Shown: piece after piece, positions 14,311 to 42,708 of the stretch
Layout: every line of letters starts with the position of its first letter
Numbering within the stretch: position 1 is the stretch's first letter
DNA from: Patescibacteria group bacterium
GTDB lineage: Bacteria; Patescibacteriota; Patescibacteriia; SG8-24; DYFX01
Direction: 5' to 3'
DNA length: 64,000 nt
NCBI GenBank assembly: GCA_041659045.1
Contig: JBAZZB010000003.1
Coordinates: 28,212-92,211 of the forward strand
The notes under the pieces: generated by a model
What the model saw: only the letters and a program-made list of their open reading frames with translations
What the model was told of the DNA's origin: nothing
Databases searched by the model: none
Position numbers and translations under genes: made by a program

Positions 14311-14313
14311 TCT

Positions 14314-25148: not shown

Positions 25149-26431
25149 AGCATCTTCTTCCGAATGAAGGCGGGGATGTCGAGCTCTTCTTCTTCAGCGG
25201 CCGTGCCGGCCGGTTGCGGTACCGGGGAGGTGCCGCGGAAGCGCTGAGGCTCCGGTTCGAGCGACTTGATACGCTTCGGCATAGCCGAGGCGCGCGACGG
25301 ATCAAATACCGGTTGTGGTTGGGGCTGAACTTGAGGCTTCACTTCAATCGGGCGCACGGCGGCCACGACCGGTTTTTCCTCGGCAGGTTTCGTAGCAAAA
25401 ATAGAAGGCTTCGAAGCGGGGGCAATTGAACCAGCCGAGAGAATACTCTTCATCGACGTGGTCATCTGTGAACGCTCCTGGTTGTCAAAACCCGTCGCCA
25501 CGACAGTGACTTTGATCTCGTCTTTCATCGATTCATCAATGACCGCACCGAAGATCACCTTGGCGCCCTCGTCGGCCTTCTCTGTAATAACAGCGGCCGC
25601 GTCGGCGACTTCTTTCATGCCCAGGCTCGGACCGCCCGTGACGGTAAACAAGATGCCGCGCGCGCCATCGATCGAGACCTCAAGAAGAGGGCTCGCGATC
25701 GCCTGCTTCGCAGCTTCGATCGCGCGGCCTTCTCCGGCACCGCGACCGATACCCATGAGAGCTGAGCCTTGGCCGAGCATGATCGCCTTCACGTCGGCAA
25801 AGTCGACGTTGATGAGGCCCGGCACGGTGATAAGTTCGCTGATACCTTGAACGCCTTGGCGCAAGACGTCATCGACAATTTTGAAGGCGTCGAGAAGCGA
25901 CGTCGTTTTATCGATGAGACCGAGAACGCGGTCGTTCGGAATCGTGATGATGGTGTCGAGACGATCTTTCAATTCCTTGTAACCGGCCTCCGCGACGTCG
26001 CGGCGCTTCGCACCTTCAAACGCGAAGGGGCGCGTAACCACAGCGACGGTGAGCGCGCCGAGGTCACGAGCGATTTCCGCCACGACCGGCGCCGCACCCG
26101 TACCCGTGCCTCCGCCGAGTCCACACGTCACGAACACCATGTCAGCGTCCTTGAGCGCTTCGCGGATTTCGTTGGCGCTCTCTTCGGCGGCGCGCTTGCC
26201 CATTTCAGGATCCATGCCTGCGCCAAGGCCGCGCGTAACGGTTTTTCCGATATGCAACTTCACAGGCGCGTGCGAGTGATGCAGCGCTTGAACGTCCGTG
26301 TTAACGGCGATGAATTCGACACCGCGGATTTTCGACAAAATCATGCGGTTGACGGCGGAGTTGCCCGAACCGCCGACGCCGACGACTTTGATCTTCGCGA
26401 ATGTTTCTACCGCGGGTTTGACTTCGCCCAT
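25145..26431 (-). CDS. ftsZ: cell division protein FtsZ
   Basis: [16 protein letters not shown] tubulin signature; full-length FtsZ with a Pro/Gln-rich linker. Confidence 0.95.
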
Positions 26432-26538: not shown

Positions 26539-27798
26539 TCAAGGCAGGAGCGAGCGTAATAGCTTTTTAAAGCGGCTTCCGACCTGCAAATCACCGAATT
26601 TGCTGGCCAAGCCGTTTTGACCGCGCGCATTCTCCGAAAGGTGGTGGCCCCAAAGAACGAGGCCGACCGCCGTCGAAAAAGCGATGTCGTTTGTGCGATC
26701 GGTGATACTTGAGACGTTTACCGGATAGCCGAGCGCGGCCGGGAGGCGCAGTTCTGTCTTGGCCATGTCGACTAAACCGTTCAACTTCGCTCCCCCACCG
26801 GTCAGGATGATGCCGGCCGGAAGACGTCCGCTGCGGTCGATCTTCTTGAGTTCCTTATCGATTTTGCCAAAAATTTCTTCGACGCGCGCCTCGATAATTT
26901 CAGCGACAAACTTCTTGCTGACAACTTCGTCCTCTTCGGCGCCAAGATCGGCGAGGCGGATGTCTTCGCGCTTCGCTTCACGCGACGAGGCGAGACCATG
27001 TTCAACCTTCACGCGTTCCGCAACTTCAATCGAGGTGCGCAAACCGATCGCCACGTCGGACGTAATGTGATCGCTGCCAATCGGAAGCACGACCGTGCGC
27101 AACACGTCTCCATCTTCATAAACGGCAAGCGACGTAGTGGAGCTTCCGATGTTGGCGACGGCGACACCCAATTCTTTTTGGCGCGAGCTGGCAACGGCTT
27201 CGGAGGCCGCCAAAATACCGAGCACGACGTCGTCGATCTCGATGCCGGTGCGATAGACGCACTTGGAAAGATTTTTGAGCTGCGAAGAAAGACTCTGGAT
27301 GATTTGCGCGTCGACTTCCAAACGAATGCCGGTCATGCCGACCGGATCCTTAATACCCGACTGCCCGTCGACGATAAAACTCTTGGGCAGGACGTGGAGA
27401 ATTTCGTAGTTTAAAGGTGTGGCAACGGTACGAGCAGCTTCAAGAGCGCGCTCGACGTCTTCTTCGCGGATCTCGCCGTCGGAACGCGAGACCGCAACGA
27501 CACCTTTTGATTCCTGGGAAACGATGTGGCTACCGGAAATGCCGACAAAAGCGCGCTCGATTTGCACGCCGGTCATGCGCTCGACTTTTTCCAAACAGGT
27601 AGAGACCGAAGAGATGGCGTCTTCAATCGAGGTGATCACACCCTTGTTGACGCCGACTGACGGAGCTTCTGCCGCGCCGATGATCTGGATCGACTCGCGG
27701 CCACCCGCGGAAGAACTGCGTTGCCCGACGGCAACACGCACCGACGAAGAGCCGATGTCGAGACCTGCGACGATTTCGTTGGAGGAAGACTTCGCCAT
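26539..27798 (-). CDS. ftsA: cell division protein FtsA
   Basis: Actin-fold ...IVAGLDIGSSSVRVAVGQ.... Start at M10 (MAKSSSNEIV) by homology; the track's M1 would overlap dgkA by 22 nt. Confidence 0.9.
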   Translation of the reverse strand: MAKSSSNEIVAGLDIGSSSVRVAVGQRSSSAGGRESIQIIGAAEAPSVGVNKGVITSIEDAISSVSTCLEKVERMTGVQIERAFVGISGSHIVSQESKGVVAVSRSDGEIREEDVERALEAARTVATPLNYEILHVLPKSFIVDGQSGIKDPVGMTGIRLEVDAQIIQSLSSQLKNLSKCVYRTGIEIDDVVLGILAASEAVASSRQKELGVAVANIGSSTTSLAVYEDGDVLRTVVLPIGSDHITSDVAIGLRTSIEVAERVKVEHGLASSREAKREDIRLADLGAEEDEVVSKKFVAEIIEARVEEIFGKIDKELKKIDRSGRLPAGIILTGGGAKLNGLVDMAKTELRLPAALGYPVNVSSITDRTNDIAFSTAVGLVLWGHHLSENARGQNGLASKFGDLQVGSRFKKLLRSLLP

Positions 27799-27803
27799 AA
27801 AGT

Positions 27804-28163
27804 TCACTTGAAGACGTGCGGCCAAAACACCAAAACGCCCGCGAGGAGCGCGCCAACCGAACTGACGAGCACAGCACCCGCCATCATGTCCTTAATTTGC
27901 TCGGCGTACTCATGCATGCGCGGCTTGAACAGATCAACGAGCCGCTCGACGGCGCCGTTGAGTAATTCTAGCACGAGCGTCATCGCAGCGACAACGACAA
28001 GGAGCGCCGTTTCCGCGCGCGAGAGTTTGAAAATGAAGATCAGCACGGTCAGCACGACGGCCGCGAAGAGCTGAAGACGAAAACTCTGTTCTTCGCGAGC
28101 GAGCGTCATGATGCCCTTCACCGCGAAGCGCAGACTGCGCAGAAAACGCCCGGTATCAACCAT
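27804..28163 (-). CDS. dgkA: diacylglycerol / undecaprenol kinase (DgkA family)
   Basis: 119 aa, three TM, N-terminal ...FLRSLRFAVKGIMTLAREEQSFRLQ... matches the DgkA amphipathic start. Confidence 0.8.
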   Translation of the reverse strand: MVDTGRFLRSLRFAVKGIMTLAREEQSFRLQLFAAVVLTVLIFIFKLSRAETALLVVVAAMTLVLELLNGAVERLVDLFKPRMHEYAEQIKDMMAGAVLVSSVGALLAGVLVFWPHVFK

Positions 28164-28578
28164 ATTTTTGCGATTTCAGAATACGCTTTTGGAGCGGAAA
28201 CATGACGTTTTCGTCTTTGAGCGTTTCGTGGTCGTAACCCAAGAGGTGCAGCACGCCGTGGACAACAAGCATCGCGAGCTCGTCACGCAAGGGTTTCTTG
28301 GCTTCCTTCGCTTGGCGCTCGGCTTGCGCGACTGAAATGACAACGTCGCCGAGCAGCCCATGCTCACCGTCTGCGAACGAAAGGACGTCCGTCGTTTTTT
28401 TCTTGTTGCGATGCACCGTGTTGAGCTTTGTCATCTCGCGGTCGGAAACGAAAACGACGCCGACTTCGGCGGAAGTTTTTACCTTCGCGCCGCGCAGCGC
28501 GGCTTCGACCGTTTTTTTAATCCAAGCGTCGCTAACCGGCGCTTTGACGCGCCGAGCGACGGGAACGGTAACGATCAT
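28156..28578 (-). CDS. ybeY: rRNA maturation endoribonuclease YbeY
   Basis: ...VVHGVLHLLGYDHE... metal-binding H-x3-H-x5-H motif. Confidence 0.85.
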   Translation of the reverse strand: MIVTVPVARRVKAPVSDAWIKKTVEAALRGAKVKTSAEVGVVFVSDREMTKLNTVHRNKKKTTDVLSFADGEHGLLGDVVISVAQAERQAKEAKKPLRDELAMLVVHGVLHLLGYDHETLKDENVMFPLQKRILKSQKYG

Positions 28579-29564
28579 GGCTTCTTGCTGAAGCTATTGG
28601 TGAACATACGGAAGGTTGTCTTCAGCGCGTTCGGCCAAGGCTCCGTCGGCCCGCCTGCTTCACCTTCGCCGTAGGACTGGACGTATGCGAGACGATAGAT
28701 CTTGCCTTCAAGGTTGATATACGCGATAACGCCGTCTGACGCACGGACACCTTCAAGTCCGGACTTCGTGGAAAATTGCTCAACCTGCGTCGGGGAAACG
28801 CTTGGATTCCTCGTCAGATACCAGTCTAGGACGGATTGCGCGTCGGGATTTTCCTCTTTGCGCACTTCAAGATATTCGAAACTTCCGATCGCGAAAACAT
28901 AGGCATTCCAGAATTCTTGGAAACTACCGCCGCCCGGTGTCAGCACCCTGAATGCATCGTTGGCGTCCGCAAACGGAACGACAAGATTCGCTTCTTCAAG
29001 TTTTGTCGGCTTGAAACCAATTGGATTGTACAGGTTTGTGACTTCGAGGCCGTCTGAGTAGCCGTCGCCGTCCGTGTCGCTGTTCAGAGGACCTGTCTTG
29101 TACATTCCCTCTTCAAAATTCGTCAGTCCATCATTATCCGGATCCAGCGCGTCATCATTCGGCGGCGTCGCTGGCGTGGTTGTGGCGGGTTCCGGCTGAG
29201 GTTGCGGTTCTGGTTGTGGCTGGGGTTCGGGTTGAGGCTGCGGCGTCGGGAGGGTGACTGAAGGCGCAACAGGCTGCGCGGGCGGATCTGGACGAAGGAA
29301 CCACCAAATTGCAAAGCCCATACCGGCCAAAAGCACGACGGCAATAATCGGGATGAGAATCCATTTCTTGCTGCCAGATTCTTTTTTCGGTTTTGGAGGT
29401 TCGTTCGACGCAGGACTTGGCACGATCGCCATCGATGTCGTCGGGACAGGCATGTCTTTCGGCAGCTGCGCCTTTGCCGCCACGCCATAAAACTGTTCGG
29501 GGATCGTGTAGATCACCGGATCTTTCGGGGCGGCGGCGCTTTGCGGTGCTGGCTGCTCGGGCAT
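28575..29564 (-). CDS. membrane-anchored protein with PQPEPQ linker and thrombospondin-type-3-like Ca-binding repeats
   Basis: Single TM (WILIPIIAVVLLAGMGFAIWWF), (PQPE)n linker, DPDNDGLTNFEE and DTDGDGYSDGLE D-x-D-x-DG repeats, and a C-terminal domain of about 150 aa. Track M1 is TTG; first ATG at 29564. ATGA overlap with the ybeY start. Confidence 0.6.
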   Translation of the reverse strand: MPEQPAPQSAAAPKDPVIYTIPEQFYGVAAKAQLPKDMPVPTTSMAIVPSPASNEPPKPKKESGSKKWILIPIIAVVLLAGMGFAIWWFLRPDPPAQPVAPSVTLPTPQPQPEPQPQPEPQPQPEPATTTPATPPNDDALDPDNDGLTNFEEGMYKTGPLNSDTDGDGYSDGLEVTNLYNPIGFKPTKLEEANLVVPFADANDAFRVLTPGGGSFQEFWNAYVFAIGSFEYLEVRKEENPDAQSVLDWYLTRNPSVSPTQVEQFSTKSGLEGVRASDGVIAYINLEGKIYRLAYVQSYGEGEAGGPTEPWPNALKTTFRMFTNSFSKKP

Positions 29565-29579
29565 GGCTTTCAAACGTGG

Positions 29580-30176
29580 TTACGGAGCGGGCGGGATCTG
29601 AAGGAGTTTTCCCGCGCCTTTCGGATTGTAGCCGTTTCTGACTTCGTCGCCGTCTTTGAACGTATCGGCGTCCGTATCAACATTGTTCGGATCCGTCATG
29701 TAGACTTCGACTTCTTCTCGGTCGGAGAGCCCGTCGTTGTCTGTGTCGACCATGCCGGCATTCGTGCCGATTTGACTCTCACGCATATCACTCAGACCAT
29801 CGCCATCGCTATCGATTTCCGGCTGAGGCGGTGTTGGCTGCAGCTCGGGCTGCGGCTGTGGTTGAGGTTCAGGTTGTGGCTGGGGCGTGGGTTGCGGTTC
29901 GGGCGTAGGAAGTTGCACTGCGGGTTCCACAGGAACTTTACTGCCACGAAGCGAGAAGTAGGCTGCTGCGCCGCCGCCGATCAAGACGACGACAAGCACG
30001 AGAATCAGAATCCCCTTCTTGCCGAAAGCGGCTTGCTGCATCACGACACCTTGGCTCGCCGCGACCGGAGCTGCAGCTCCAGGCATCTGCGGAGGAACGT
30101 TCGTCGGTTTTTCGGAAGGAATCTCGGCGAAGATATCAGCCGGTTCGGTTTTGTCGTCGAAGAGGAAGAAGATCAT
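29580..30176 (-). CDS. membrane-anchored protein with PQPEPQ linker and TSP3-like repeats (paralog)
   Basis: TM (ILILVLVVVLIGGGAAAYF), (PQPx)n linker, DSDGDGLSD / DTDNDGLSD / DTDADTFKDGDE repeats. Confidence 0.6.
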   Translation of the reverse strand: MIFFLFDDKTEPADIFAEIPSEKPTNVPPQMPGAAAPVAASQGVVMQQAAFGKKGILILVLVVVLIGGGAAAYFSLRGSKVPVEPAVQLPTPEPQPTPQPQPEPQPQPQPELQPTPPQPEIDSDGDGLSDMRESQIGTNAGMVDTDNDGLSDREEVEVYMTDPNNVDTDADTFKDGDEVRNGYNPKGAGKLLQIPPAP

Positions 30177-30182
30177 ACCTTT

Positions 30183-30659
30183 TTATTCTACACAAAATAC
30201 CGGACGCTGTCCTGCGGCACTCGCTTCTTGCTGACGCGTCGCGACCCACGTTTTATCCTGCGTCTTGCCGTCCGTCATCGCTTTGAGCGGATCCGTGCAA
30301 AAAGAACGCACTTCGTCGAGGTCGCTGAGCCCGTCACTATCCGTATCCTTGCGATTCGGATCCGTGCGAAGCATCGCCTCTTCCCCATCGATCAAGCCGT
30401 CGTTATCGCTGTCTTTTTGTGCCGCTTCGGACAAGATCGGCGGAGAATCTCTTTCAAGAGGAACAATGCCATCGGGCTTCGACGTCGCCGGGGAGCCTGG
30501 AACCGGCGTCGGTTTCGCCCCAGTTTCTGTAACAGGAGCAGGAACCTCGACCCCCGGAACCGCAAGGCGTGCCGCGCGAGCGCGGAGGATGATCACGACC
30601 GTTGCGGTTCCTGCGAGGAAAACGGCGACAAGGCTAATGATGATGACAAGTCGCTTCAT
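30183..30659 (-). CDS. membrane-anchored protein with TSP3-like repeats (paralog)
   Basis: N-terminal TM (LVIIISLVAVFLAGTATVVIIL), DSDNDGLIDGEE and DTDSDGLSDLDE repeats. Starts 1 nt after the giant gene's stop. Confidence 0.6.
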   Translation of the reverse strand: MKRLVIIISLVAVFLAGTATVVIILRARAARLAVPGVEVPAPVTETGAKPTPVPGSPATSKPDGIVPLERDSPPILSEAAQKDSDNDGLIDGEEAMLRTDPNRKDTDSDGLSDLDEVRSFCTDPLKAMTDGKTQDKTWVATRQQEASAAGQRPVFCVE

Positions 30660-30660: not shown

Positions 30661-33600
30661 TTAATCGTTCGCGTTCGGGCCGTCGGCTCTGTTTACGTAC
30701 TTGTTCTTCAGTGTGAAACGTCCTTCGGTCGAGGAGGCCGTCTTGTCGATACGACCGATGTACCACATGCAAGGGTTTCCAGAGATGTCCGAGACGCTCG
30801 TGAGTGTGCGAGTCGTGCCGGTTGTGATACCAGAGACGCTCGCAGCTGATCCTGCTTCGATCGTGAAGATGGAGTTTCCTTTGATCGTCGAGCTGGCTCC
30901 CTTCCACCAACCGGTGTTGCGATCGAAGAGCGGTGCCAGGCCGTAGTTTCCATCAACGAAGCAGCTGCCGCCGTTGGCAAAGACATGGTAGGTACCCTGC
31001 GGCAATGACTGGGTCGAGAGCACCATGATTTCAGGGTCTGTTGCGTGCGTGCCGCCCGTTACGTCCCAGAAGAGCTGGATGTGATCGGTCGAGAAGTTGC
31101 CGTTGCCGACATAGCGCGTATCCGGTGAGCCGTCTTTCCAGCCGAAGTAACGCGTTTGTCCCGCGAGCGGACCTGAGCTGTAGACCGCTTTCACGTACAA
31201 GTCGACTTCGTTTGCTGCCGTGTGCGGCGTAGGCCACGAGATCTTGAAGCGGAAGTCGCCTGGGAGAAGTGTGCCGTTGTCGCAACCGCCGGTATAGAGA
31301 CCACAACCTCTTGAGCACAGCACCTGGCCGGCCGTACCGGCACCCTGTGAGGCGCAAGACGGGGCCGCGCCGCCCGCGAATCTGTTTGTGTCGCAGACTT
31401 CACCGTAGGTCGATTGAATCGTATTGTCGCCGCAATAGCCGCCATTCGGATCGTAGACGCAATCGTTACGGCAGACGTACGTCGTGCCTTGGCCGCGCGC
31501 TTCCGGATCACCCTGACCATCGCACTGCTCACCGAACAATCCTTGCTTCACGCCATCACCACAGAACGCCGCGCTCTTCGCATTCGTGCCGAAGCAGGCG
31601 TTTGAACAGTAGTTACAAGAACCATCGAGACGATACGCGACGCACGGACCATTTGCTCCGCATTCGGCATCGCTCGTACAAAGGCGACCGTTGACCTTAC
31701 ATTTTCTGGCCGTCGCGGCCGCTTGCGTGTTGGTGTACGGCTCCGGCTGACACTGCGTGTTATACGCAATGCACTGACCTTCGCCACCCTGACAATACTG
31801 ACCTGCGGCGCAATCTCCAGCAGCGCGGCAAGGCGCACCTTCCGGCGCAGCCGTACCTGTGCCCGTATACGGAGCGTAGGTGCCCGGGTCGAGTTCCAAC
31901 CCCGTACCATCAAAACCGGTATCAGCGCGGTCTGGGGGCGTTGTCGCAGTGGTGACAACGAGGTTCTGCGTGCGCGCCGACATGTTTCCATTGCCATCGA
32001 ACGCGTTGATCGTGATCGTGTGGATGCCCGCTGAAAGCTGACCGACGTTGACGGAGCAAGCCGCGGTCGCCAGGCGCGGATTAAACCGACAGGTTGTTCT
32101 CAATACTTGGACAGCGGCCGTCGTGAGATAGATATCGATGTTGTCGACGAGTGCGGCAGCGTCCGTCACATCCGAAACGGTGATGACAACCGAGTCGTTC
32201 GTTGTCGGACTTGTCGGAGCTGTCGTGATCGCGCCAATCGCGGGAGGAGTCGTGTCGCCAGGAACGCCGGCATTGCACTCACCGGGGCCGCACGTCGCGA
32301 AGGTGACGATCGAACCAGCAAAACGTCGCGCGGCCTCACCAAGAGGACCGAACATCGGAATCTCCACATCAGAACGCGCGAACGTTGATGAGGCGGGTGC
32401 GGCACTCGTGCTCGTGGACGCGCCCGGATAGTTGCGGCAGACGCCCGGCAAGCAGTCGTTGTTCGTCGTGCAACCCTTCACCCCGCTCGTATCAGACGGA
32501 TTCTGGTACGTGCGGCTGCACCAAGCTGTCACCGGACCTGGGTCGCACGTTTCCGGCGGCGCCGAAATTGTCCTATCGCCACAGAAGGCACCGGAAATTG
32601 TTTCAATGGAGCAATCGTTCTTGCAGTAGTTGCAGACAGAACCGTATTGCGGCGTGCAGAGAACTCCGTTGGCCGTGCCGTTGTCGCATTGTTCAACGCC
32701 GGTGCGTACGAAACCATCGTTACAGACGTTGAGCCTGCAGGTCGCGAGACACGTGCCGTTCGGAGAGTTTGCCGCGCCAGCATCGCACTGCTCGGCACCT
32801 TCAACAACACCGTTGCCACAAGCACCGGAAGGACGGCAGATTGACCAATCGTTAAAGGTGCACGCATCGCCAACAGGTTCCGTTGCCGCTTTGCAGCTCT
32901 TGGTACGCGTTTGTGGAAGACCTCCGGTTGTGGCGGCACAGAGCGAGCATGTTTCACCCGTGGCGCAATCAGAAGTTCTGGCGCAAGAAGCGAAGTCGCG
33001 CGGCGCGGTATTTGTATCAACCAACGAGAAGCCGGTTGGGACACAAACACCCTGGGTACTTGTCTGGTTTGCATCGCATTGTTCACCACCGTTGGTACTG
33101 CCATCACCGCAACGAGGACCGGGACCACGGCAGTCCCACGCACAGAAACCGTACTCGCCGTTTCTGGCACCGTCATCACACACTTCAGAACCATTTTTCA
33201 CGCCGTCACCGCAGAAATTCATGCGATCGGTACACACGGACGGATACGGCAAGCCGGAGCAGTCGGAGTTCGTACTGCACGCTTGTCCAAGGTCACAGCT
33301 TCCGTCCGCGCAGTTGCCGTCGAACGACGCGCGCTTGGCGATGTTGACGCAACGCTTCACGCAACCAAGACTACCGCTGCGGCAGCGACCGTACTGGCCG
33401 TTTTGAGCGCCATCATCGCACGATTCACCAGCAAACGATTCAAGGGATCCGTTGCCACACGCAGCAGCTCCAGGGCAAGCCGTCTGCACTTGCCATGTGC
33501 AAGCAGCGTTGCACGTTTCAAAATCTTGTCCGCCGGAGGCACAGGCGACGTTGCGCGTCATGCCGACTTCGCACTCTTCTGTACCTTCAAGCAAACCATT

Positions 33601-36600
33601 ACCACAGGCACCACCAGCAGCTGGGCCGACGAGAGGTACGCCGACTGGCATACACGCATCTTGCGGAGCGCACTGGCTGGAAGAGGTGCAGCTCGCACCC
33701 GTCGCGAGACATGCTCGCGGCGCGGTTGAAGGCTGACCGGAGCAGACTGGAGAAATCGTGATACGCGTCTGGCAGCTACCGGTCGTCGGACCGGAAGGAA
33801 CCCACGAGCAACCCAGCGCAGCATCGCAAGCGAACGCGCTCGGTTTCGATGAACAAGACGTTCCCAACCATTGATAGGTGACGTATTCGAAGTCGACGGC
33901 CATGCGGTAGTCGATGCCGCCGATCGCGCGATACTGGTAGACGTGCGAGTTTGCGGGGCAAGCGAAGATGCCGATCTTGTCGTTGTAGCACGTCTCTGCT
34001 TCGAACGTGGCGCGGCAGACATCCCCTGCTCCACCTGTGCAATCAGAATTCACAGAGCACGCAACACGGCTGATGGAACACTCGGAACCGAACGCTTCGC
34101 AACGATTAAAGGCATTGATCGGATCAACGACACTGCCGGCTCCGCCGAGCTGCTGGCTCCACGAAGGCCACTTGGATGTCGTGAAACCGCGCACGAAACT
34201 GCCGGATTCGAGTTTCGGATAGAAGCCGGTCTGTTCGCGCGACGTCTCGAGCGATTGTTCGATCACACGCATATCCTGCCAGCGGCGCATGTCGCGGCGG
34301 ATCTTGTCTTTGTCGGCGTCACAGCGCATGCCCGCAGGACCGTTCGGCAATGCGCGATCGCAATCAAGATTGCTGCTGCAGGTAATCGGTGCCGTGTTTT
34401 CTGCGGTCAGGTGGAGCAATTCTCCAGCGGCGTTCTTACATACGTTCGTCACGCGATCCGAAGGCACCAAATTCGTGTTGAAGTTGATGTTGCTGACGAG
34501 ACGATTAAAGATTTCCGCCGTGCGCGGGTCCGCGTGATCGTTAAACGCGAAGACGTAGATGTATGAGCGGAGATCCGGATCGCCGTATTTGTCGGCCGCG
34601 CCGATATAGACCGTGCGTTCGTCTTTGATCGCCATGTAGCCATCGACTGTCGCGCTCTGAGTCTTGCCCGAGAAGCGCTGGGCGACGTACCACTCTTGCG
34701 GCGTAAGACGGTCACTGTTTTCGTACACGCGCACACCAATGGCGTCAGAAACCTTCCACTCCGACTGGAAGCGGTACAAGAGGTCTTTGGAGCGGCAGGT
34801 GTCGCCGGCGTTGCAGTCCGCGTTCGTCGTGCAGGCGCGCGATTGCGAGAAATCGGTTGTCGCGGCGCAGAAGCGCAGCAAGCCAGAACCACCAACCGAC
34901 TGTCCTTGCGTCGGAGCGCTCATGAGCTCCGGCAGTGCGGCACCGGCGTTGTCGCGGCAATAATAGAATTCGAAGTGCGTCTGCGGATCGACATACGGTG
35001 CCCAAGCACCCGTCGAGACATCGCGGCGCGGCCACGGCATCTGGCAGAGCATGACCGTGATCGTCGATTTCCCGACTTTGTCCTGACCCGCCGTCGTAGG
35101 CGTGAGTGCCGTATCCGTTGTAATACGAGCGGTCGCAGCAACCTGTTCCTGACCGTTCAAGCCCTTTTTCGCTTGAACGATTGTGGATGGAGCACCCGCA
35201 ACAGCCGTCATGTCGAGAATCGGACCAACCGTGGCGCTCTCCGGGATATTCGCCCAGCTCCACGACCAGTCATAGACGCCAGGAACGGGAGAAATTGCTT
35301 CAAGACGACCACCACGGTCGGTCATCGCCGTCGCGGTGATCGTGAGAGGAATCGCAGAGTCCTGGATGAGTTCCGTCGCCGGCGACGTTTGCACGACGTC
35401 AAAGCGGCAGACATCCGAACCCGTCGTGAAGTCCTGCACGGTGTTGGCGCCTTCGGGATAGCCGACACCCTTGATCGTTTTCACACCCGTCGCTCCGCCA
35501 CGTGCCGTCACGCGATAGAGTCGGTTGGGGCTCAACATCTGTTTCGGAGCGAACGTAGAAATCGTGCGCACCGATGCGTCGGGCGCCGTGACATTCACGT
35601 GCGTAAAGGCGCCTTCGATCGGCGCACAGATATGCGAAGCGGATGCTTCCATGCCGACCAAGGAGCGGAAGAAGCGGCCGACAGAGGAAGCGGCGCGCGC
35701 GAACCACGAGCGCGGGCCTTTTTCGTTGAAGGCGTGGCTCGGGCACGATTCGACGACGAGACCACCCTGCAACGAGCCGGTATTCATTTCTTCGCCGAAC
35801 TCGACGCTGATCTGGACGTTCCGGCATTCGTTGCCGCCCTTCGGATTAATATCCGGCGCGTCCGGACGCGGGAAACAGCACGCTCCGGCGCCGCACGAAA
35901 GATTCGGTCCAAAGGCGGAGCAGTCACTGTCAGCGCGGCAAGAGCACTCAACATTCACGCTCCCCTGTCCGGAGACCGTGCCGATCGCGGCTGTTACCGA
36001 AGCGCTGCAGTTATTGCGGGCGTCGCACTGATTACGCGCTTCGATGACTTGCATCGGATCGATGTTCGCATCGAGCGCCAACGCTTCGCATTCTTCACCG
36101 CCACCGTTTTGAGCATTCGTCAGAGGGTCCGCAGGCTGCATGCTAATAACAGTGTCGCCGCAATAGGCGCGAAGTTCCGGATCGGAACCCGTCCTCGTGC
36201 AACGCGTCGAACAACCGGAAGAGGCGTCGCCGTTCTTGGCGGCCGCGTCGCAGTTTTCACCTTTCGCGGGTTCGATCACGCCGTTGCCACAGCAGTTGGT
36301 GCCGGCAGTGCACGTGACGGGGTTTCCGCGCAGCAAGCAGCTTTGTCCGCAGGCGAAATTCGGACGCGTCGGATTACGTTCATCCGTCGCGCCAAGCGCC
36401 GCAGGCGGGCGTCCAGCGATGAGAAGCTGCGTGGCAAGACCTCCAGCTCCAAGTATGTAGTCGCACTGTTCGCCTGGCGTTTCCAATAAGCCGTTGCCGC
36501 AAACATAGACGTTCTGGCGAGAACCTTCGAGTACGCAGCGCGAGCTGCAGCCGTCGCCATCTTGCGTATTGCCATCGTCGCACGCTTCGCCAACGCCTGT

Positions 36601-39600
36601 GGAGCCGTTGCCGCAAGCCGAGAGTCCAGGGGTGGAACCGACGAGCAAACAGGACGTCGTGCAACCAGCCGCTGCGGTACCATTCGCGGCACCCGCATCG
36701 CACTCTTCTCCGCGATCTGCCTGTACCGTGCTGTCACCGCAACCGTTCGTGAGCGTATTGCCTGTCGACAAGCAGTTCGCATTGCAACCATTCAGCCCGG
36801 GCGTATCACACGCTTCGCCACGTTCAAGCGTGCCGTTGCCGCATGAAGGCGTTCCTGCTGGCTGACTTCCTGTCATGAGACAGTTGGTCGAACAGCCAGC
36901 CGGAAGAATCGGATTGGTGTTGAGAAGCGTACCCGGCGGCACGTCAGGCAAAAGACGAATCGAAACAGGTGAAGCCGGGTTCTGTGCCTTGCTCCATGCC
37001 CAGTTATAGGAAGACGCGTTGAGCATCTGGCCGTTTGCGGCACAGGTGTCAGGAGAGCTCAGTGGCATGGCTGTGATCGGCGATACTTCACCGATGTAGC
37101 GCAGCGTCGTCTGTTGCGGAGCCAGGGTCACGCTTTGCGGACCGCACGGATCGCCGCTTAGGCGCGTGCGGAAAATCCAGCTGAAAGCATTCCCAGAATA
37201 GTTCAGACCCGTGAGAGGCGCTTGGCTCGTACTCTGTGCAGTGCCGAGAATAACGGCGCGGTACCAGGTGTTCGGCGCGAGCGCGACGTTGCCGAACGAC
37301 AAGAGTCTCGCCGGCGCGTTGTAGTTCGGCGCGAGCGGTACTTCACCCTCGAACGTCAGACACGACTCGTTGCGGCAGCGATACAAGCGCACATTCGAAA
37401 GAATGCTGCTGGGACCGCTTTCAGCCATCGGCGTGTTGAAGTAGGCGAAACCGACCGTGTTGACGCAGGCTTCGTTGCAGTCGTGCGGGCCATACTCAAC
37501 AACGCGCGGGTTGGCGTAATCAACCGTCAGCAAACCGGAGTCTGCAAAACCATCGACCGTCGAACGGATTTGGATCGGCGGACCTGGGTCGGTTTCGGAA
37601 ACCGGCGTCGCGACCGCTTCGCACTGGCGCGAACCGCCAAGCGAAACAATCGTCGCTTTACCCGGATCGGTCGAAGCCCAGTTCACGGTGCGACCAGCGC
37701 AGGAAAGAATGATGCAGCGGCTCGATAGCGGGAACGCTTGATAATCCTTGGTTTCGTCGGCAGCGGCAATCAGCGCGCTCGTCGGTTGCACGTCGACACC
37801 GGAAATCACGCAAGGACCAGCCCCTGTTTTGAAGGACGTAACATAGGCGCCACCTGCGCGACCATCGAAGTTGCCGTCGAGCACCTGTGCTCCCCTCTCG
37901 GCTGTACCGAGGCTGCGTACCTGGTCTCGGATCGTCAGCCGATACCACGTGTTCGGCGCGAGTCCGTTTACCGGCAACACGAGTTGCGAGCGGCCGTCGG
38001 TGTCGTAATCGAGAAGACTCGGCGCTCCAGCACCCGCGACAGCAGAACACGTTGTTGAGATCGTTGCTCCCGTGCCACAAGCTTCAAAGACGACGTTCGC
38101 GGCGTTGAACGTGGCAGGATCCATCGGCAAGCTGAAACGTGCCGTCATGGTTCCCATGTCGGTACAGACGTCGGTCATGCCCTTGAAGGGGTTCGGGCTC
38201 GGCATAGCCGAAGGAGCCGTGGCTTGGCACGTCGCGTTCTCCATGACGATCGGGAACACCGGAATCGGTCCGGTCGAGAACTGCCATGCAAAACCACCAG
38301 CAGCGGCCGCAGCACCGCACGACGCGCGGCAAGCACCATCATCGCAGCAGCTGCGTCCGCTACCGCACGAAGCATCGCCACCACTCTCGCGGCAATCACG
38401 AATCTGGAAATTTACACCATTGGATTCAGCCGGTGTCGCACCAACAAACGTGCGCACACGCACCGGACCCGTCGTCGCGCCATCGGGAACCGACGCAGCA
38501 ATCGAAGACGACTGCCACTGGCCGATTGAAGAGGCGTTGATGTTGTCGTTGAAACGAACAGCGTCAGGATGCGCGGTGATGAAGGCCGGAAGATCGGCGC
38601 CGGAAATCGTGCCGAAACCGTCGCCGTAGAGCGTCACCGCGGTGCCGATCGGGCCGTTGTCGGGATCGACGCGGCAGAGGCCAGGCGTGAGCGGATCGGT
38701 ATTGATCGTAAACGGAATTGCGTTTGATACGCGACCGTCGGAACGCACAACCGTGACGTTGTACGCACCAAGCGCGACCGCCGTGTCAGCCGGCGTCGTG
38801 AAACGCGCAGGAACTTTGACGGTGACGCTGGCGTTCGTCCAATAGCCCGCCGCGCATTGCGCCGGGAAACTGATATCACCGACCGCTTCGCCCGCAGCAT
38901 TCCTGAAACGCACCGTGCCGCCGGAACCAAAGTTCGAACCGAAGAGCGACACGTACGTGCCAACCGATCCGTCTTCTGGCGTGATGAATTCGACGCGCGG
39001 TTCGGTTCCCGCTTCAGGAGGTTCGACGCGAAGACATGCTGTGTTCGAGGGCTGTCCCGCAACCGTTACGCGCAACAAGAAATTCGAACCATCAAAATCT
39101 GTTTCAACGTTCGGAATTGTCGGCGAGAAGGACGTTTCACTCCACGGAGACACCTGGGAAGCTTCCGCAGCCGTCGTCCAATCTTGAATTTGAGAACAAT
39201 CGGCACCGGCGCGCGTAATTTGCACGCGTGAATCACCCTGTGCCGCGCCAAAGGCGAGACCGGTCACAACGACCGTATTCCCCGTTTTCACCGAAGCCGG
39301 AGCGACCGAACAAATACCCGGACGTGCGACGTCGTTCACCTGGAAATCGGTGATGATCGGTCCGTAGGCATCGTTCGTCGCGTCTTGGCGTCCTCCGGAA
39401 GCAGCGACGCGAATCGGTCCCGTAACCGCGCCTTGCGGCACGAGTACGACAATACGATTGTCACTCCAAGCGTTTGCGCATTGTGCGACGGTCGCCACTT
39501 GATCATCCCCTGCCGCCGCCGTACCCAAGAACGTCACGGTACCCGCCGTCGATCCGAAACGATCACCCGTGATCGTCACGAGGTTACCGGGACGACCGTC

Positions 39601-40926: not shown

Positions 40927-42708
40927 TTATGGGAGGAAGCCGCAAGCGACCTGTGAAGGCACGCCATTGCAGCAATACGGTTCAGTTCCGGTACAGACCG
41001 TCTGGCCGCCGCCTGGGTAGAAGCAGTTCTGGCGCAAATCGCGCAGGCCGGAGGTGAGGTTGATGGCGTACGGCTGGTTGATCGACAGAAGATCGTGATC
41101 AATGATGCCTTTCGTTTGATCTGGATCACCACCAACGACGGAAGAAATCGCTTCGGTCTCGATCGAGTAGTTCGTCGGGGCACCATTCGCTCCCGGCACG
41201 AGCCTGGCATTATCCGTCGTGAAGCTCGTCGAGCTCATGAGTTTCGAGAACGTCACCGCCATCGCGAGATCGCGCGCGATGTTGCCCTGCAGCACCGCCG
41301 GTTCCTGAGAGACAACTTTCGGCGGCACGAGATCGATCTCGTTGGACGTGCGGAAGTCAGACGTGTAGTCGTCATCGGGAGAACCTTGCGCCGTACCGTT
41401 GCCGTTACCATCGAGCGCGTTACCCGCCATGTCGGTGATGCCGTTGGGAGGATAGATGCCGAGCGGCGGAGTCGATGTCAGCGCGTCGGTGCGCACGCGT
41501 ACGTTGATTTGTTGGTTGCCTGGGAGGCAGAACACTTCTTCGCCGCAAGAGTTCGTGCCGCAAGCTTCGTTGGTGTGGAATTCGACGGTGCGATAGGCGT
41601 TACCGATCTGCTGCACGCCCGGAACGACGTTGCCGCCCGTGCGCGTGATCGAGAGGCCGGAGGTCACACTGACCGGATCAACCGCTTCATCGAACGTCAC
41701 CTGGACCAGCGAGTTGCGCGGCACGCCACTCGCGCCGTCGTTCGGGATGACGTAGGAAACTTTCGGCGGCGTAAGGTCGAGCACTGTTGAAACCTGGAAC
41801 TCCCAGAGATACCCGGAGTTGAAAGTGCCCGTGAAAGCCGGAGCGCCTCCTTCGCGGCGCACGCCGTCCGTACCACCGCGGAGACCGATCGTATAGAAGA
41901 CGTTTTCTGATGGGCTGCCGAAGCAGTTCGTCGGACAATTGCGCTGCACAAACGTCACGCTGCGACCATCAGCGGAAACAGCGACGTCGATATCGGCAGA
42001 CGTCAGGCTCTGTGAGAATTTTTGCGCGAATTGGTTCGACGAAGTAACGTCAGCGGATTTTGAAATCGCGACCGTTGCGTTCGCGCCACCAACGACGATC
42101 GAAGCAGGGTCGATGCGTTGCTTGAATGTGACGACGACACGCGTGTTGCGCGCGACACCTGTCGCGTTGCGATTCGGATAATGGCTCTCAATAATACCGT
42201 TACCGAGCGCGCCAGCCGGGCAGGTTGCCGAAAGGCCGATGCACGCACGATCGTCCGGCGCGCTGGAGCCGCTGCCCGGGCCTCCCCCGCCGGGGCCGCC
42301 GCCTTCAGCGAGCAAACGACTGATGACAAACGAGGTGATCGCAAAAGCAGACAACATGATGACCAACCCGATGACGGCGGACGTCAGGATTTTCTTGGCG
42401 CGATCGACCTTCTCGGGTTCGCCGGCGGCTGTCATCCAAATGAAGCCGGCGTACAAAATAAGGAGAAGCGCGATCGTGCCGAGGAAACCGAAGAATGCGC
42501 GAATAATACGGGCAATCGTCACGCGAATGTCGCCCGTGCCTGTTCCAATAACGTTTCCAAGTTCCGTCGGCAACACTTCATTGGCCGTCACCTGCGCTTG
42601 CGCCAGATGTGCAAAAGCGAAGGACGCAAAAACCACCAACACGAAACTGGCGACCGTGAAGGTGGCTTTAACGAGTACTTGGGAGAGTGACTTCCTTCCT
42701 GAGAGCAT
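40927..42708 (-). CDS. secreted protein (593 aa) with the same pilin-like N-terminal module followed by Ig-like domains
   Basis: About 70 % identity to the giant protein over the first 130 aa or so (...DIRVTIARIIR...GTIALLL.LYAGF.WMTAAG...RAKK.L..AVIGLVI..SAFAI.S.V.S.L..GGPGGGGPG). Ends 3 nt before the giant gene's start. Confidence 0.75.
   Translation of the reverse strand: MLSGRKSLSQVLVKATFTVASFVLVVFASFAFAHLAQAQVTANEVLPTELGNVIGTGTGDIRVTIARIIRAFFGFLGTIALLLILYAGFIWMTAAGEPEKVDRAKKILTSAVIGLVIMLSAFAITSFVISRLLAEGGGPGGGGPGSGSSAPDDRACIGLSATCPAGALGNGIIESHYPNRNATGVARNTRVVVTFKQRIDPASIVVGGANATVAISKSADVTSSNQFAQKFSQSLTSADIDVAVSADGRSVTFVQRNCPTNCFGSPSENVFYTIGLRGGTDGVRREGGAPAFTGTFNSGYLWEFQVSTVLDLTPPKVSYVIPNDGASGVPRNSLVQVTFDEAVDPVSVTSGLSITRTGGNVVPGVQQIGNAYRTVEFHTNEACGTNSCGEEVFCLPGNQQINVRVRTDALTSTPPLGIYPPNGITDMAGNALDGNGNGTAQGSPDDDYTSDFRTSNEIDLVPPKVVSQEPAVLQGNIARDLAMAVTFSKLMSSTSFTTDNARLVPGANGAPTNYSIETEAISSVVGGDPDQTKGIIDHDLLSINQPYAINLTSGLRDLRQNCFYPGGGQTVCTGTEPYCCNGVPSQVACGFLP

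What the first reader, a model, noticed from the sequence alone, without database searches (positions are those of the whole stretch)
28575..30659. Three tandem paralogous membrane proteins with PQPEPQ linkers and thrombospondin-type-3-like Ca-binding repeats, directly after the giant gene
Three consecutive genes (gaps of 1-16 nt) each encode a single-pass membrane protein. Each carries a (PQPE/PQPT)n linker and 2-3 Asp-rich D-x-D-x-D-G-(L/Y)-(S/T)-D-x-x-E motifs (DPDNDGLTNFEE, DTDGDGYSDGLE, DSDNDGLIDGEE, DTDSDGLSDLDE...). The same-strand position right behind the pilin-module proteins suggests accessory or anchoring subunits. No characterised system has this composition.
Basis: partly seen in the sequence, partly recalled or inferred. 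Interest (0 to 1): 0.6.

Follow-up and report, generated by a model that had tools for sequence, protein, structure and literature searches.

The report
Calcium-binding membrane tethers beside giant surface gene
Three small genes behind a giant surface-protein gene encode membrane-anchored proteins with calcium-binding loops; this gene arrangement recurs across many uncultured Patescibacteria, always between the giant gene and the cell-division genes, and has not been studied.

Summary
Three minus-strand genes, A (30183-30659), B (29580-30176) and C (28575-29573), follow the 3420-aa pilin-module gene with gaps of 1, 6 and 6-15 nt. C overlaps ybeY by 4 nt. All three pass the Pfam TSP3_bac cut-off. 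The acidic 12-residue loops sit 22-23 residues apart, and shuffles give about 0 where 6 are seen. One detail is wrong: A has no PQPE repeat.

The proteins are uncharacterised and specific to Patescibacteria. B-type proteins have an N-terminal "FDD..EPxDIF" tail. C-type proteins have an "I[HY]xIPxxF" tail and a C-terminal PsbP/Mog1-fold domain. A is a tail-less paralogue seen only in close relatives.

In 44 non-redundant loci the order is pilin-module gene, 1-3 of these genes, ybeY, dgkA, usually followed by ftsA and ftsZ. Of 80 loci found with generic TSP3 patterns, only the two true relatives share this neighbourhood.

The most likely role is that of Ca2+-loaded tethers that span the envelope and partner the giant surface protein, as TraB partners TraA. 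The tails may dock on an actin-like protein such as FtsA, as the FtsN and PilN tails do. All of this rests on sequence and gene context. Binding and function are inferred. I call it a new variant of a known kind, of moderate interest.

The parts
30183..30659 (-). Gene A, 158 aa. It has an N-terminal signal-anchor TM, a Pro/Thr-rich spacer without PQPE, two TSP3_bac loops, and a C-terminal tail with a conserved Cys pair. It has no cytoplasmic tail.
   Evidence: ORF; Pfam TSP3_bac 40.1 bits. Clear orthologues (phmmer E 4e-53 to 2e-72) with the conserved ..FCTDP..FCVE Cys pair occur only in the closest relatives; weaker A-like first genes (E 5e-20 to 2e-8) occur in further loci.
30585..30650 (-). 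A: transmembrane segment LVIIISLVAVFLAGTATVVIIL
   Evidence: Hydropathy, coordinates.
30312..30413 (-). A: two Ca-loop motifs, DSDNDGLIDGEE (30378-30413) and DTDSDGLSDLDE (30312-30347), 22 residues apart
   Evidence: DNA repeat family D2.
29580..30176 (-). Gene B, 198 aa (B-type). It has a cytoplasmic tail with the FDD..EPxDIF motif, a TM, a PQPE/PQPT spacer, three TSP3_bac loop-helix units, and a conserved end EVRNGYNPxGxGKL.
   Evidence: Pfam 50.5 bits; 851 relatives at E<=1e-6; AlphaFold2 pLDDT 97-98 over residues 121-190.
30114..30161 (-). B: conserved cytoplasmic motif FDDKTEPADIFAEIPS
   Evidence: D14 is invariant and F6, P12 and F16 nearly invariant in 35 B-family members. The motif is seen across distant lineages.
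29946..30020 (-). B: TM helix (residues 53-77)
   Evidence: AlphaFold2 helix 53-77, pLDDT 90-95.
29814..29945 (-). B: Pro-rich PQPE/PQPT spacer (44 aa) encoded by imperfect 18-nt tandem repeats
29643..29813 (-). B: three Ca-loop motifs, DSDGDGLSDMRE, DTDNDGLSDREE and DTDADTFKDGDE
   Evidence: Profile match to the double acidic-loop segment of S. aureus Bap (7c7r), E 1.9e-7.
28575..29573 (-). Gene C, 332 aa from the TTG (the likely true start is the ATG at 29564, giving 329 aa). C-type: cytoplasmic tail with PVIYTIPEQFYG, a TM, a (PQPE)n spacer, two TSP3_bac loops, and a C-terminal PsbP/Mog1-fold domain. The stop overlaps the ybeY start (ATGA).
   Evidence: 53 full-length relatives at 39-58% identity; Pfam TSP3_bac 27.8 bits.
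29469..29519 (-). C: conserved cytoplasmic motif PVIYTIPEQFYGVAAKA, with core [IV][HY]x[IM]PxxF
   Evidence: I21, P25, F28, G30 and A35 are invariant in 33 sequences. The core is retained in the most distant loci. It resembles a conserved FtsA IC-domain strand.
29298..29366 (-). C: TM helix. Five K/R residues on the N-side against one on the C-side indicate N-in, C-out.
29145..29297 (-). C: Pro-rich spacer with (PQPE)n, encoded by 12/18/36-nt imperfect tandem repeats. Its length varies between orthologues.
29043..29144 (-). C: two Ca-loop motifs, DPDNDGLTNFEE and DTDGDGYSDGLE, 22 residues apart
   Evidence: pLDDT 87-95.
28578..28991 (-). C: C-terminal globular domain with the PsbP/Mog1 fold
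30661..40923 (-). Upstream giant gene, 3420 aa: signal peptide, VirB2-like T4SS_pilin hairpin, Ig-like domains and Cys-rich repeats. This is the proposed extracellular partner.
   Evidence: Pfam T4SS_pilin 30.7 bits (cut-off 26.6), TIG, Big_5, Big_7, and a weak DUF4215 match. An orthologue lies directly upstream of the TSP3 genes in related loci.
40927..42708 (-). Second pilin-module protein, 593 aa (T4SS_pilin plus Big_5), the first gene of the conserved module
   Evidence: A similar protein of about 550-600 aa lies upstream of the large pilin-module gene in L045 (T4SS_pilin + Big_5) and L047 (Big_5 only), and a 1007-aa one in L046.
26539..28578 (-). Downstream context: ybeY (28156-28578), dgkA (27804-28163) and ftsA (26539-27825). 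FtsA is a candidate cytoplasmic partner for the tails.
   Evidence: Pfam. ybeY is the next gene downstream in all 42 loci that have sequence there.

Best explanation
A, B and C are co-transcribed bitopic (N-in, C-out) envelope proteins of Patescibacteria.

Each is held in the membrane by one helix. Each reaches through the wall zone on a Pro-rich, probably polyproline-II spacer. If fully extended, that spacer would be roughly 13-16 nm in B and C. Each displays two or three EF-hand-like TSP3_bac loops that bind Ca2+ and stiffen into a compact acidic module. C adds a PsbP/Mog1-fold protein-binding domain.

Together they act as Ca2+-dependent tethers or adaptors for the two VirB2-module surface proteins encoded just upstream. 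They hold or organise the giant Cys-rich, Ig-rich fibre at the membrane and wall. This resembles the way the TSP3-containing TraB partners and anchors the Cys-rich receptor TraA in Myxococcus.

The short conserved cytoplasmic tails of B and C couple this outer assembly to an intracellular partner. The most plausible candidate is an actin-like protein such as FtsA, bound in the manner of the FtsN or PilN tails.

Shown here: the genes, motifs, spacing, family membership, fold of the C domain, conservation of the tails, and gene order. Inferred: topology, Ca2+ binding, co-transcription, both binding partners, and the tethering role.
For: Architecture:
- TSP3_bac scores above the cut-off in all three proteins.
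- The loops follow the DxDxDGxxDxxE pattern at a fixed 22-23 residue pitch.
- AlphaFold2 models each repeat as a loop plus a short helix, with pLDDT 87-98.
- The B-family profile matches the double acidic-loop segment of S. aureus Bap (E 1.9e-7).
- The positive-inside rule is clear for C, and the ectodomains are strongly acidic.

Operon-like packing: the gaps are 1, 6 and 15 nt and the last junction overlaps by 4 nt. Terminator-like and promoter-like sites do not exceed the shuffle expectation.

Co-occurrence:
- In 44 non-redundant loci from Paceibacteria-like, Magasanikbacteria, Uhrbacteria, Falkowbacteria and other Patescibacteria, the TSP3 genes always sit between a pilin-module gene and ybeY.
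- Four B-family members chosen only for long contigs and sequence diversity all lay in this arrangement.
- In L047 there is no ftsA within 6.6 kb downstream. In L045 a 5.6-kb insertion separates dgkA from ftsA. In both, the pilin genes stay adjacent.
- Two loci with only a small 136-138-aa pilin have a single TSP3 gene without the PsbP domain. This hints that the two gene sets scale together.
- Control: of 80 metagenome loci found with generic TSP3 patterns, only the two true relatives have this neighbourhood.

Analogy: TraB uses TSP3 repeats between its barrel and OmpA domain. It is the operonic 1:1 partner that anchors the Cys-rich receptor TraA (PMC12045341).

Tails: both motifs are conserved across classes. 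FtsN and PilN set the precedent of bitopic proteins whose short N-terminal tails bind the IA-IC cleft of FtsA or PilM (bioRxiv 10.1101/2021.11.08.467742). The C-tail core resembles an FtsA IC-domain strand.
Against: - There is no experimental or structural evidence for any interaction.
- The conserved gene string runs on through ybeY, dgkA, ftsA, ftsZ, nrdR and pyk. These genes are functionally unrelated, so adjacency may be frozen synteny.
- The loci were found by searching with C or B themselves. Genomes that have a giant gene but lack these genes were therefore not sampled.
- Flanking charges leave the topology of A and B ambiguous.
- In other Patescibacteria proteins, TSP3 repeats are fused to sortases and L,D-transpeptidases. 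That fits a general wall-zone module rather than a specific adaptor for the giant.
- The pattern that links the C tail to FtsA was widened after the first hit was seen.
Confidence: 0.4

Rival explanations
1. Divisome adaptors. B and C are functional analogues of FtsN or PilN. Their cytoplasmic tails bind FtsA (or FtsZ), and their Ca2+-binding ectodomains act on the wall at the division site. On this reading the link to the giant gene is incidental.
For: - ftsA starts within 1 kb of the last TSP3 gene in 36 of the 38 loci that have more than 2 kb of downstream sequence.
- The layout matches FtsN: a short conserved N-tail, a TM, a P/Q-rich spacer and a C-terminal globular domain.
- FtsN and PilN tails bind the IA-IC cleft of FtsA and PilM.
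- The pattern [ILVF][HY][VTIS][ILMV]P..[FY] occurs 77 times in 575,306 aa of locus ORFs, against 0.95 expected. Every hit is either a C-type tail or one FtsA IC-domain strand.
- That strand is conserved in solved FtsA structures.
- The window FtsZ ends in ..[12 protein letters not shown]. This loosely resembles the DIF and IPxxF cores of the tails.
Against: - ybeY and dgkA always lie between the TSP3 genes and ftsA.
- ftsA is displaced in L045 and absent within 6.6 kb in L047, while the pilin genes stay adjacent.
- There is no sequence or fold similarity to FtsN (SPOR), FtsQ (POTRA), ZipA or SepF.
- The tail motifs are not the FtsZ C-terminal peptide motif.
- The pattern was broadened after the fact.
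- A has no cytoplasmic tail at all.
Confidence: 0.25
2. General Ca2+-binding wall or surface proteins with no dedicated partner, serving cation buffering, wall or S-layer stabilisation, or adhesion. Their position is a relic of a slowly rearranging housekeeping gene string.
For: - The syntenic block extends to unrelated genes (nrdR, htrA, pyk).
- rpsU-yqeY and ybeY-dgkA flank the module. From my own memory, these are also neighbours in Bacillus.
- TSP3_bac repeats occur in many other architectures in Patescibacteria and elsewhere, including sortase, YkuD and OmpA fusions and proteins with 4-66 repeats.
Against: - Two distinct cytoplasmic tail motifs are conserved across classes, which argues for specific intracellular partners.
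- The order pilin, then B, then C is kept where the downstream synteny decays.
- The junctions look translationally coupled.
- The C-domain family is small, with 103 representative clusters. Most full-length members are about 270-530 aa with the domain at the C-terminal end, which is not a promiscuous distribution.
Confidence: 0.2
3. VirB10/DotF/TonB-like energy-transducing or scaffold subunits of a pilus-assembly machine for the VirB2-like modules.
For: - The layout is the same: a cytoplasmic N-tail, a TM and a Pro-rich spacer.
- The B-family profile gives weak matches to DotF (7muc, E 3.7e-5) and TrwE/VirB10 (E 0.023).
- There are weak matches to NCBIfam IcmG_DotF (E 0.23) and to TonB_N in one C-family member.
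- The genes are adjacent to T4SS_pilin-module genes.
Against: - The matches cover only the tail, TM and Pro-rich segment, so they are probably compositional.
- There is no VirB10 or TonB C-terminal domain.
- None of the roughly 35 larger window ORFs scanned against Pfam, nor any called gene of the related loci shown, carries a VirB4, VirB6 or other T4SS family apart from T4SS_pilin.
- The Patescibacteria T4SS described in PMC12102498 belongs to the monoderm MPF-FATA class, and VirB10 is not among the homologues that paper reports as widely distributed in Patescibacteria.
Confidence: 0.07

Closest known systems
Myxococcus xanthus TraA/TraB outer-membrane-exchange pair (PMC12045341)
   Same: A large surface receptor with a Cys-rich stalk is encoded next to a smaller partner. 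The partner carries Ca2+-binding TSP3 repeats and anchors the receptor to the envelope. The pair is operonic.
   Different: TraB is an outer-membrane beta-barrel with an OmpA peptidoglycan-binding domain, in a diderm. Here the partners are bitopic cytoplasmic-membrane proteins with Pro-rich spacers, cytoplasmic tails and (in C) a PsbP-fold domain. The receptor is anchored by a VirB2-like hairpin. There is no sequence homology beyond the TSP3 repeats.
FtsN (with FtsA) and PilN (with PilM)
   Same: These are bitopic proteins with a short conserved N-terminal cytoplasmic peptide, one TM, a flexible extracytoplasmic linker (P/Q-rich in FtsN, from my own knowledge) and a C-terminal domain. The peptide binds the IA-IC cleft of an actin-like ATPase. 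Here the genes lie about 0.4-0.9 kb upstream of ftsA.
   Different: There is no SPOR domain, no PilN/PilO fold and no sequence homology. The tail motifs differ. Binding was not tested. Ca2+ loops are absent from FtsN and PilN.
Bacterial TSP3/EF-hand-like Ca2+ modules: S. aureus Bap (7c7r), M. xanthus CglD and MtsD, anthrax PA / binary-toxin Ca-binding domain
   Same: They share the same DxDxDG-type acidic repeats. Matches: Bap E 1.9e-7; CglD and MtsD NCBIfam partial hits with E 1e-7 to 2e-5; Binary_toxB E 4e-4. Gliding dependent on Ca2+ and CglD is reported in bioRxiv 10.1101/2023.10.19.562135.
   Different: Those are large secreted, lipidated or wall-anchored adhesins or toxins with many other domains. 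Scores here are far below the equivalog cut-offs (23-31 bits against 400-800). Here only 2-3 repeats sit on a small bitopic protein.
Mycobacterial Pro-rich envelope proteins with a PsbP-like domain (Apa, MTC28, LpqN), and PsbP/CyanoP, Mog1, Tsi3
   Different: Sequence identity is only 5-17%. Those proteins have no TM-anchored N-terminal tail and no TSP3 repeats. Their ligands are unrelated.
TonB / VirB10 / DotF architecture
   Same: A cytoplasmic N-terminus, a single TM and a Pro-rich spacer that spans the envelope.
   Different: There is no TonB or VirB10 C-terminal domain and no ExbBD or T4SS partners nearby. The similarity is confined to low-complexity segments.

Membership tests
Pfam TSP3_bac (PF18884) repeat proteins | Whole-protein score at or above the 25-bit gathering cut-off | tested here: met
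   A 40.1, B 50.5 and C 27.8 bits. 22 of 33 C-family members match at E<=0.01.
Pfam TSP3_bac (PF18884) repeat proteins | Repeated DxDxDGxxDxxE acidic loops at regular spacing | tested here: met
   Seven loops, 22-23 residues apart. Shuffles give about 0.
Pfam TSP3_bac (PF18884) repeat proteins | Ca2+ binding by the loops | not testable with these tools
   Inferred only, from the EF-hand-like consensus and from the high-confidence loop-helix models.
Eukaryotic thrombospondin type 3 repeats (TSP_3) | Match to the eukaryotic TSP_3 model, with disulfide-forming Cys in each repeat | tested here: not met
   No TSP_3 hit at E<=1. The ectodomains of B and C contain no Cys. A has two, both outside the loops.
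TraB-like OmpA/TSP3 anchors | Outer-membrane beta-barrel and an OmpA_C peptidoglycan-binding domain | tested here: not met
   No OmpA or barrel families in Pfam or NCBIfam. Each protein has a single TM helix.
TraB-like OmpA/TSP3 anchors | TSP3 repeats, with the gene adjacent to a Cys-rich surface receptor gene | tested here: met
   TSP3_bac. The giant gene has a weak DUF4215 Cys-rich repeat match and lies 1 nt upstream. The order is conserved.
FtsN / PilN-type actin-binding bitopic proteins | Short conserved N-terminal cytoplasmic peptide, then one TM, then an extracytoplasmic linker and domain | tested here: met
   B and C meet this. A does not.
FtsN / PilN-type actin-binding bitopic proteins | Sequence or fold homology (SPOR domain, PilN fold) and binding to FtsA or PilM | tested here: not met
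   No such Pfam or NCBIfam hits, and no such fold matches. Binding itself cannot be tested here.
PsbP/Mog1 fold superfamily (C-terminal domain of C) | Structural match to several members | tested here: met
PsbP/Mog1 fold superfamily (C-terminal domain of C) | Match to Pfam PsbP (PF01789) | tested here: inconclusive
   The window protein has no hit. Five of 33 family members hit at E<=0.01, best 2.2e-5.
VirB10 / DotF / TonB | C-terminal VirB10 or TonB domain, with T4SS or ExbBD neighbours | tested here: not met
   Only the tail, TM and Pro-rich region gives weak hits. No T4SS family other than T4SS_pilin was found in the window ORFs scanned or in the related loci shown.
Dockerin | Match to a dockerin family model. 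From my own knowledge, dockerins carry a duplicated 22-residue Ca-loop plus helix. | tested here: inconclusive
   No dockerin family appears among the Pfam hits at E<=1. The 22-residue loop-plus-short-helix geometry is present in the models. The similarity is only a lead.

The most novel reading that the evidence does not exclude
The module is a previously unrecognised trans-envelope complex of Patescibacteria. Giant surface fibres anchored by VirB2-like hairpins would be coupled to the FtsA actin cytoskeleton. The coupling would run through two families of Ca2+-binding bitopic adaptors (B-type and C-type), whose tails dock in the FtsA IA-IC cleft as FtsN and PilN tails do. Attachment structures would thereby be placed or regulated in step with cell division in these episymbionts.
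Probability: 0.15. Interest if true: 0.8.

Novelty: new variant of a known kind. Interest (0 to 1): 0.5.

Why it matters
Patescibacteria make up a large share of bacterial diversity. Most are thought to live attached to other cells, yet their surface machinery is almost entirely uncharacterised.

This work defines a gene module conserved across classes. It consists of two VirB2-module surface proteins and one to three Ca2+-binding bitopic proteins with two distinct, deeply conserved cytoplasmic peptide motifs. The module sits next to ybeY and dgkA, and usually ftsA and ftsZ follow.

If the adaptors really link a giant adhesin-like fibre to the wall, and perhaps to FtsA, three things would follow. 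There would be concrete, testable candidates for how these cells build and position their attachment organelle. There would be a role for calcium in that process. And there would be a monoderm counterpart to the TraA/TraB and FtsN/PilN designs.

If instead the genes are only general wall-zone Ca2+ binders, the finding is a useful family annotation and little more.

Tried and rejected
- The metagenome scan meant to find more loci of the 'small pilin plus single TSP3' type used generic TSP3 patterns. It returned mostly unrelated multi-repeat proteins. I used it as a negative control instead, and it did yield L049 and L101.
- Literature searches for the cluster found nothing specific. The terms covered Patescibacteria with thrombospondin, giant and ftsA, PF18884/PF18895, giant or large surface proteins, and divisome. 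A search for the PilN INLLP motif found no paper. The likeness of the C-tail to that motif (from my own memory) therefore remained unverified and was left out of the argument.
- The promoter and terminator scan found no signal above the shuffle expectation inside the block.
- P0235 (3580 aa, 30 matched stretches) in the representative search is a repeat-driven artefact.
- Rejected: compositional low complexity.
- Rejected: eukaryotic-type TSP_3 membership.
- Rejected: FtsQ/POTRA, ZipA or SepF identity for C.
- Rejected: DotF/VirB10 homology, because the hits are restricted to the tail, TM and Pro-rich segment.
- A CwsA match to B (E 0.006) covers only the TM region and was disregarded.
- A complex prediction for FtsA plus the tail could not be tried.

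Full report
**1. Observation**

The three ORFs exist as described, on the minus strand:
- A: 30183-30659, 158 aa.
- B: 29580-30176, 198 aa.
- C: 28575-29573, 332 aa from a TTG.

All 32 aligned relatives of C begin MPE/MSE/MAE at the position of the ATG at 29564 (a few have the first residues missing), so that ATG is the likely start.

The junctions are as follows:
- Giant stop to A start: 1 nt (TAA-T-ATG).
- A to B: 6 nt.
- B to C: 6 or 15 nt.
- The C stop overlaps the ybeY start (ATGA).

Each protein has one strongly hydrophobic segment. AlphaFold2 models it as a helix in B and C.

All the quoted Asp-rich motifs are present. There are two in A, three in B and two in C, with starts 22-23 residues apart.

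Pfam's bacterial TSP3 repeat model scores above its curated cut-off in all three proteins: 40.1, 50.5 and 27.8 bits against 25. A strict motif pattern occurs six times in the whole window, only in these genes. Residue shuffles of all long ORFs give 0.01. Shuffles of each protein's own residues give at most 0.001. The 'low complexity' refutation therefore fails.

The three proteins align collinearly over TM, spacer and repeats: A/B 6e-17, A/C 7e-13, B/C 8e-6. The loop-coding DNA recurs in register about 600 nt apart. This fits an old tandem duplication.

One detail in the finding is wrong. A has no PQPE/PQPT repeat, only a Pro/Thr/Ala-rich spacer.

**2. What the proteins are**

*C.* C has 53 full-length relatives at 39-58% identity, all hypothetical proteins. 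Of the three that do, two say 'Patescibacteria group' and one 'Candidatus Baltobacteraceae'. The alignment shows four parts:
- an invariant cytoplasmic motif, PVIYTIPEQFYGxAAKA;
- a TM;
- a Pro-rich spacer of variable length;
- two TSP3 loops followed by NLYNPxGFKPT, and a C-terminal domain.

The AlphaFold2 model has pLDDT above 90 for the loops and the C-terminal domain. That domain has the PsbP/Mog1 fold:
- Foldseek E 1.8e-4.
- Pfam PsbP matches 5 of 33 family members.

An exhaustive search of 1.84 billion representatives with this domain finds only 103 clusters at E<=1e-3. Most full-length members are about 270-530 aa with the domain at the C-terminal end.

*B.* B belongs to a large family, with 851 relatives at E<=1e-6. 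The family has:
- an N-terminal MFD(D/E)...(E/P)xD(I/M)F(A/S) tail;
- a TM and a spacer;
- three or more loops;
- a conserved end, EV(K/R)NGYNPxGxGKL.

The model gives pLDDT 97-98 for the repeat module, with each repeat a loop plus a short helix. The family profile matches the double acidic-loop segment of S. aureus Bap (7c7r, E 1.9e-7).

In more distant lineages the B-type protein also carries the PsbP-like domain.

*A.* A lacks a cytoplasmic tail. Clear orthologues, with a conserved Cys pair, occur only in the closest relatives.

*The C-type tail.* Its core, [IV][HY]x[IM]PxxF, survives in the most divergent loci.

**3. Genomic context**

On the minus strand, the window reads in this order:
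- HisRS
- an IS200-like ORF
- S21
- YqeY
- a 593-aa T4SS_pilin plus Big_5 protein
- the 3420-aa giant, with T4SS_pilin, TIG, Big_5, Big_7 and weak DUF4215 matches
- A, B, C
- ybeY, dgkA, ftsA, ftsZ
- nrdR, htrA, pyk and a histidine kinase

The closest genome found is a complete 1.17-Mb Patescibacteria MAG, CP129476.1, with 70% identity for C.

I mapped gene order in 44 non-redundant loci. They were drawn from neighbourhood look-ups, a scan of species-representative genomes and a metagenome scan. The results:
- ybeY is the next gene after the last TSP3 gene in all 42 loci with sequence there.
- A homologue of the giant or a pilin module lies directly upstream in 35 loci.
- Eight of the other nine loci hold 2.5 kb or less of upstream sequence.
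- The ninth, L101, has a 269-aa gene between the TSP3 genes and a Cys-rich giant of at least 1772 aa.

Record titles include Paceibacter, Minisyncoccota, Magasanikbacteria, Uhrbacteria, Falkowbacteria and Parcubacteria.

The number of TSP3 genes per locus varies from one to three. Two loci (L009, L049) have only a 136-138-aa pilin, then S21 and a single TSP3 gene without the PsbP domain, in the same slot between HisRS/HIT and ybeY.

In two of them the link to ftsA is loosened. L045 has a 5.6-kb insertion, and L047 has no ftsA within 6.6 kb. In both, the pilin genes remain adjacent.

As a control, the metagenome scan used generic TSP3 peptide patterns. Of the 80 loci it returned, only the two true relatives had ybeY and ftsA next door.

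There is a caveat. The conserved string continues through nrdR and pyk in all lineages. Gene order here decays slowly, so adjacency alone is weak evidence of a shared function. Also, all loci were found by searching with B or C, so genomes lacking them were not sampled.

**4. Mechanism**

The best-supported picture is of N-in, C-out bitopic proteins. A Pro-rich spacer carries a small Ca2+-loaded acidic module, and in C also a protein-binding PsbP-fold domain, out from the membrane. The module stands beside the two surface proteins anchored by VirB2-like hairpins that are encoded immediately upstream.

The nearest system-level analogue is TraA/TraB of Myxococcus. TraA is a receptor with a Cys-rich stalk. 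Its operonic 1:1 partner TraB has TSP3 repeats that join a barrel to an OmpA domain, and it anchors the receptor to the wall (PMC12045341). CglD shows Ca2+-dependent function of a similar repeat module in a surface adhesin (bioRxiv 10.1101/2023.10.19.562135).

VirB2-like pilins are known to be widespread in Patescibacteria. The paper that surveyed them (PMC12102498) makes no mention of 'giant' proteins, and the VirB2/pilin passages I read say nothing of fusions to large surface proteins or of TSP3 neighbours.

Shown: sequence features, family membership, fold, conservation and gene order. Inferred: topology, Ca2+ binding, co-transcription and every interaction.

**5. The cytoplasmic tails and FtsA**

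The tails are the most conserved parts of B and C outside the loops, so they probably bind something inside the cell.

A loose version of the C-tail core, [ILVF][HY][VTIS][ILMV]P..[FY], was scanned over 575,306 aa of ORF translations from the window and the 44 loci. It hit 77 times, against 0.95 expected. Every hit was either a C-type tail or one strand of FtsA, the protein encoded a few hundred bases downstream. In the window this strand reads NYEILHVLPKSFIVDG and lies inside the SHS2/IC domain.

That strand is conserved in the solved FtsA structures from proteobacteria.

FtsN and PilN are bitopic proteins whose short N-terminal tails bind the IA-IC cleft of FtsA and PilM.

This makes an FtsA-docking role for the tails plausible. 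However, I widened the pattern after seeing the first FtsA hit. The motifs differ from those of FtsN and from the FtsZ C-terminal peptide. I keep this as the main rival, or as a complement to the main model.

**6. Comparison, novelty and verdict**

The proteins are members of the TSP3_bac repeat class by the curated threshold. They are not members of any of the following:
- eukaryotic TSP_3;
- TraB/OmpA;
- FtsN or PilN;
- VirB10, DotF or TonB;
- any named NCBIfam family. Partial hits to CglD, MtsD and ClfB score 13-38 bits against cut-offs of 400-999.

Four full-text searches aimed at the cluster found no paper describing it, and two broader cell-division searches listed nothing on it among their top hits.

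The finding is real and not due to chance. Its domain content is ordinary, but its architecture and its deeply conserved genomic setting are unusual. I rate it a new variant of a known kind, namely Ca2+-binding TSP3 envelope partners or bitopic adaptors. Interest is about 0.5. Confidence in the giant-partner model is 0.4.

Noticed in passing
window 26539-27825 (ftsA) and 29469-29519 (C tail); loci L001-L049, L101: The C-type cytoplasmic tail core (IY/HxIPxxF) closely resembles a conserved strand of the FtsA IC (SHS2) domain (EILHVLPKSF). In 575,306 aa of locus ORFs the shared pattern occurs only in these two proteins: 77 hits against 0.95 expected.
   Followed up: partly
window 40927-42708: A second pilin-module protein (593 aa, T4SS_pilin plus three Big_5 stretches) precedes the giant. 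A similar protein lies upstream of the large pilin-module gene in distant loci (L045 593 aa, L047 548 aa, L046 1007 aa), so the module probably has two pilin-type components.
   Followed up: partly
window 42737-43482 and 27804-28578: S21 (rpsU) and yqeY lie just upstream of the pilin genes, and ybeY-dgkA just downstream of C. From memory, rpsU-yqeY and ybeY-dgkA are also near neighbours in Bacillus. The pilin and TSP3 genes therefore look like a single insertion into an ancient housekeeping string. In L009 and L049, S21 sits between the small pilin and the TSP3 gene.
   Followed up: partly
window 44379-44933 (-): An IS200-like Y1 transposase ORF (Pfam Y1_Tnp, 53 bits) lies in a lower-GC stretch (0.54) between HisRS and S21. 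The neighbouring plus-strand ORFs at 43415-44717 have no family match.
   Followed up: partly
window 12000-18300: A stretch with GC of 0.60 or more and positive AT skew has long overlapping ORFs on both strands (for example 14722-15735 on the minus strand and 14848-16329 on the plus strand) and a 482-aa ORF (16814-18262). None has a Pfam match, and the coding strand is unclear.
   Followed up: no
window 46658-47890 and 47274-47350: The mechanical 410-aa ORF for signal peptidase S26 runs across a tRNA-Val gene. The peptidase domain covers only residues 238-399, so the real gene must start downstream of the tRNA.
   Followed up: no
window 2925-4853 (-): A CHASE2 sensor domain fused to an adenylate/guanylate cyclase domain (642 aa).
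   Followed up: no
L013-L016, L018, L020, L022, L023, L026 and others: Many species-representative genome records that carry this typical Patescibacteria cluster are titled 'uncultured Gammaproteobacteria bacterium'. This looks like a labelling error in the source records.
   Followed up: no
L036 1-2300: The 5' end of this contig encodes a high-GC aminotransferase-like fragment that runs into the C-terminal part of a Cys/Trp-rich large protein. This is probably a chimeric assembly join.
   Followed up: no
L045 10700-16300: A 5.6-kb insertion between dgkA and ftsA carries an apiosidase/collagen-binding-type 839-aa gene and a short reverse-transcriptase (RVT_1) ORF. It breaks the otherwise constant dgkA-ftsA junction.
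   Followed up: no
L101 5356-6165: An extra 269-aa gene (TM plus a Cys-rich ectodomain) lies between the giant and the B-type gene in this low-GC lineage. Here both the B-type (399 aa) and the C-type (326 aa) proteins carry PsbP-like C-terminal domains.
   Followed up: partly
window 25145-26431 (ftsZ): FtsZ has a Pro/Gln-rich C-terminal linker (..[14 protein letters not shown]..) before a canonical C-terminal peptide, [12 protein letters not shown]. This composition is similar to the PQPE spacers of B and C.
   Followed up: no
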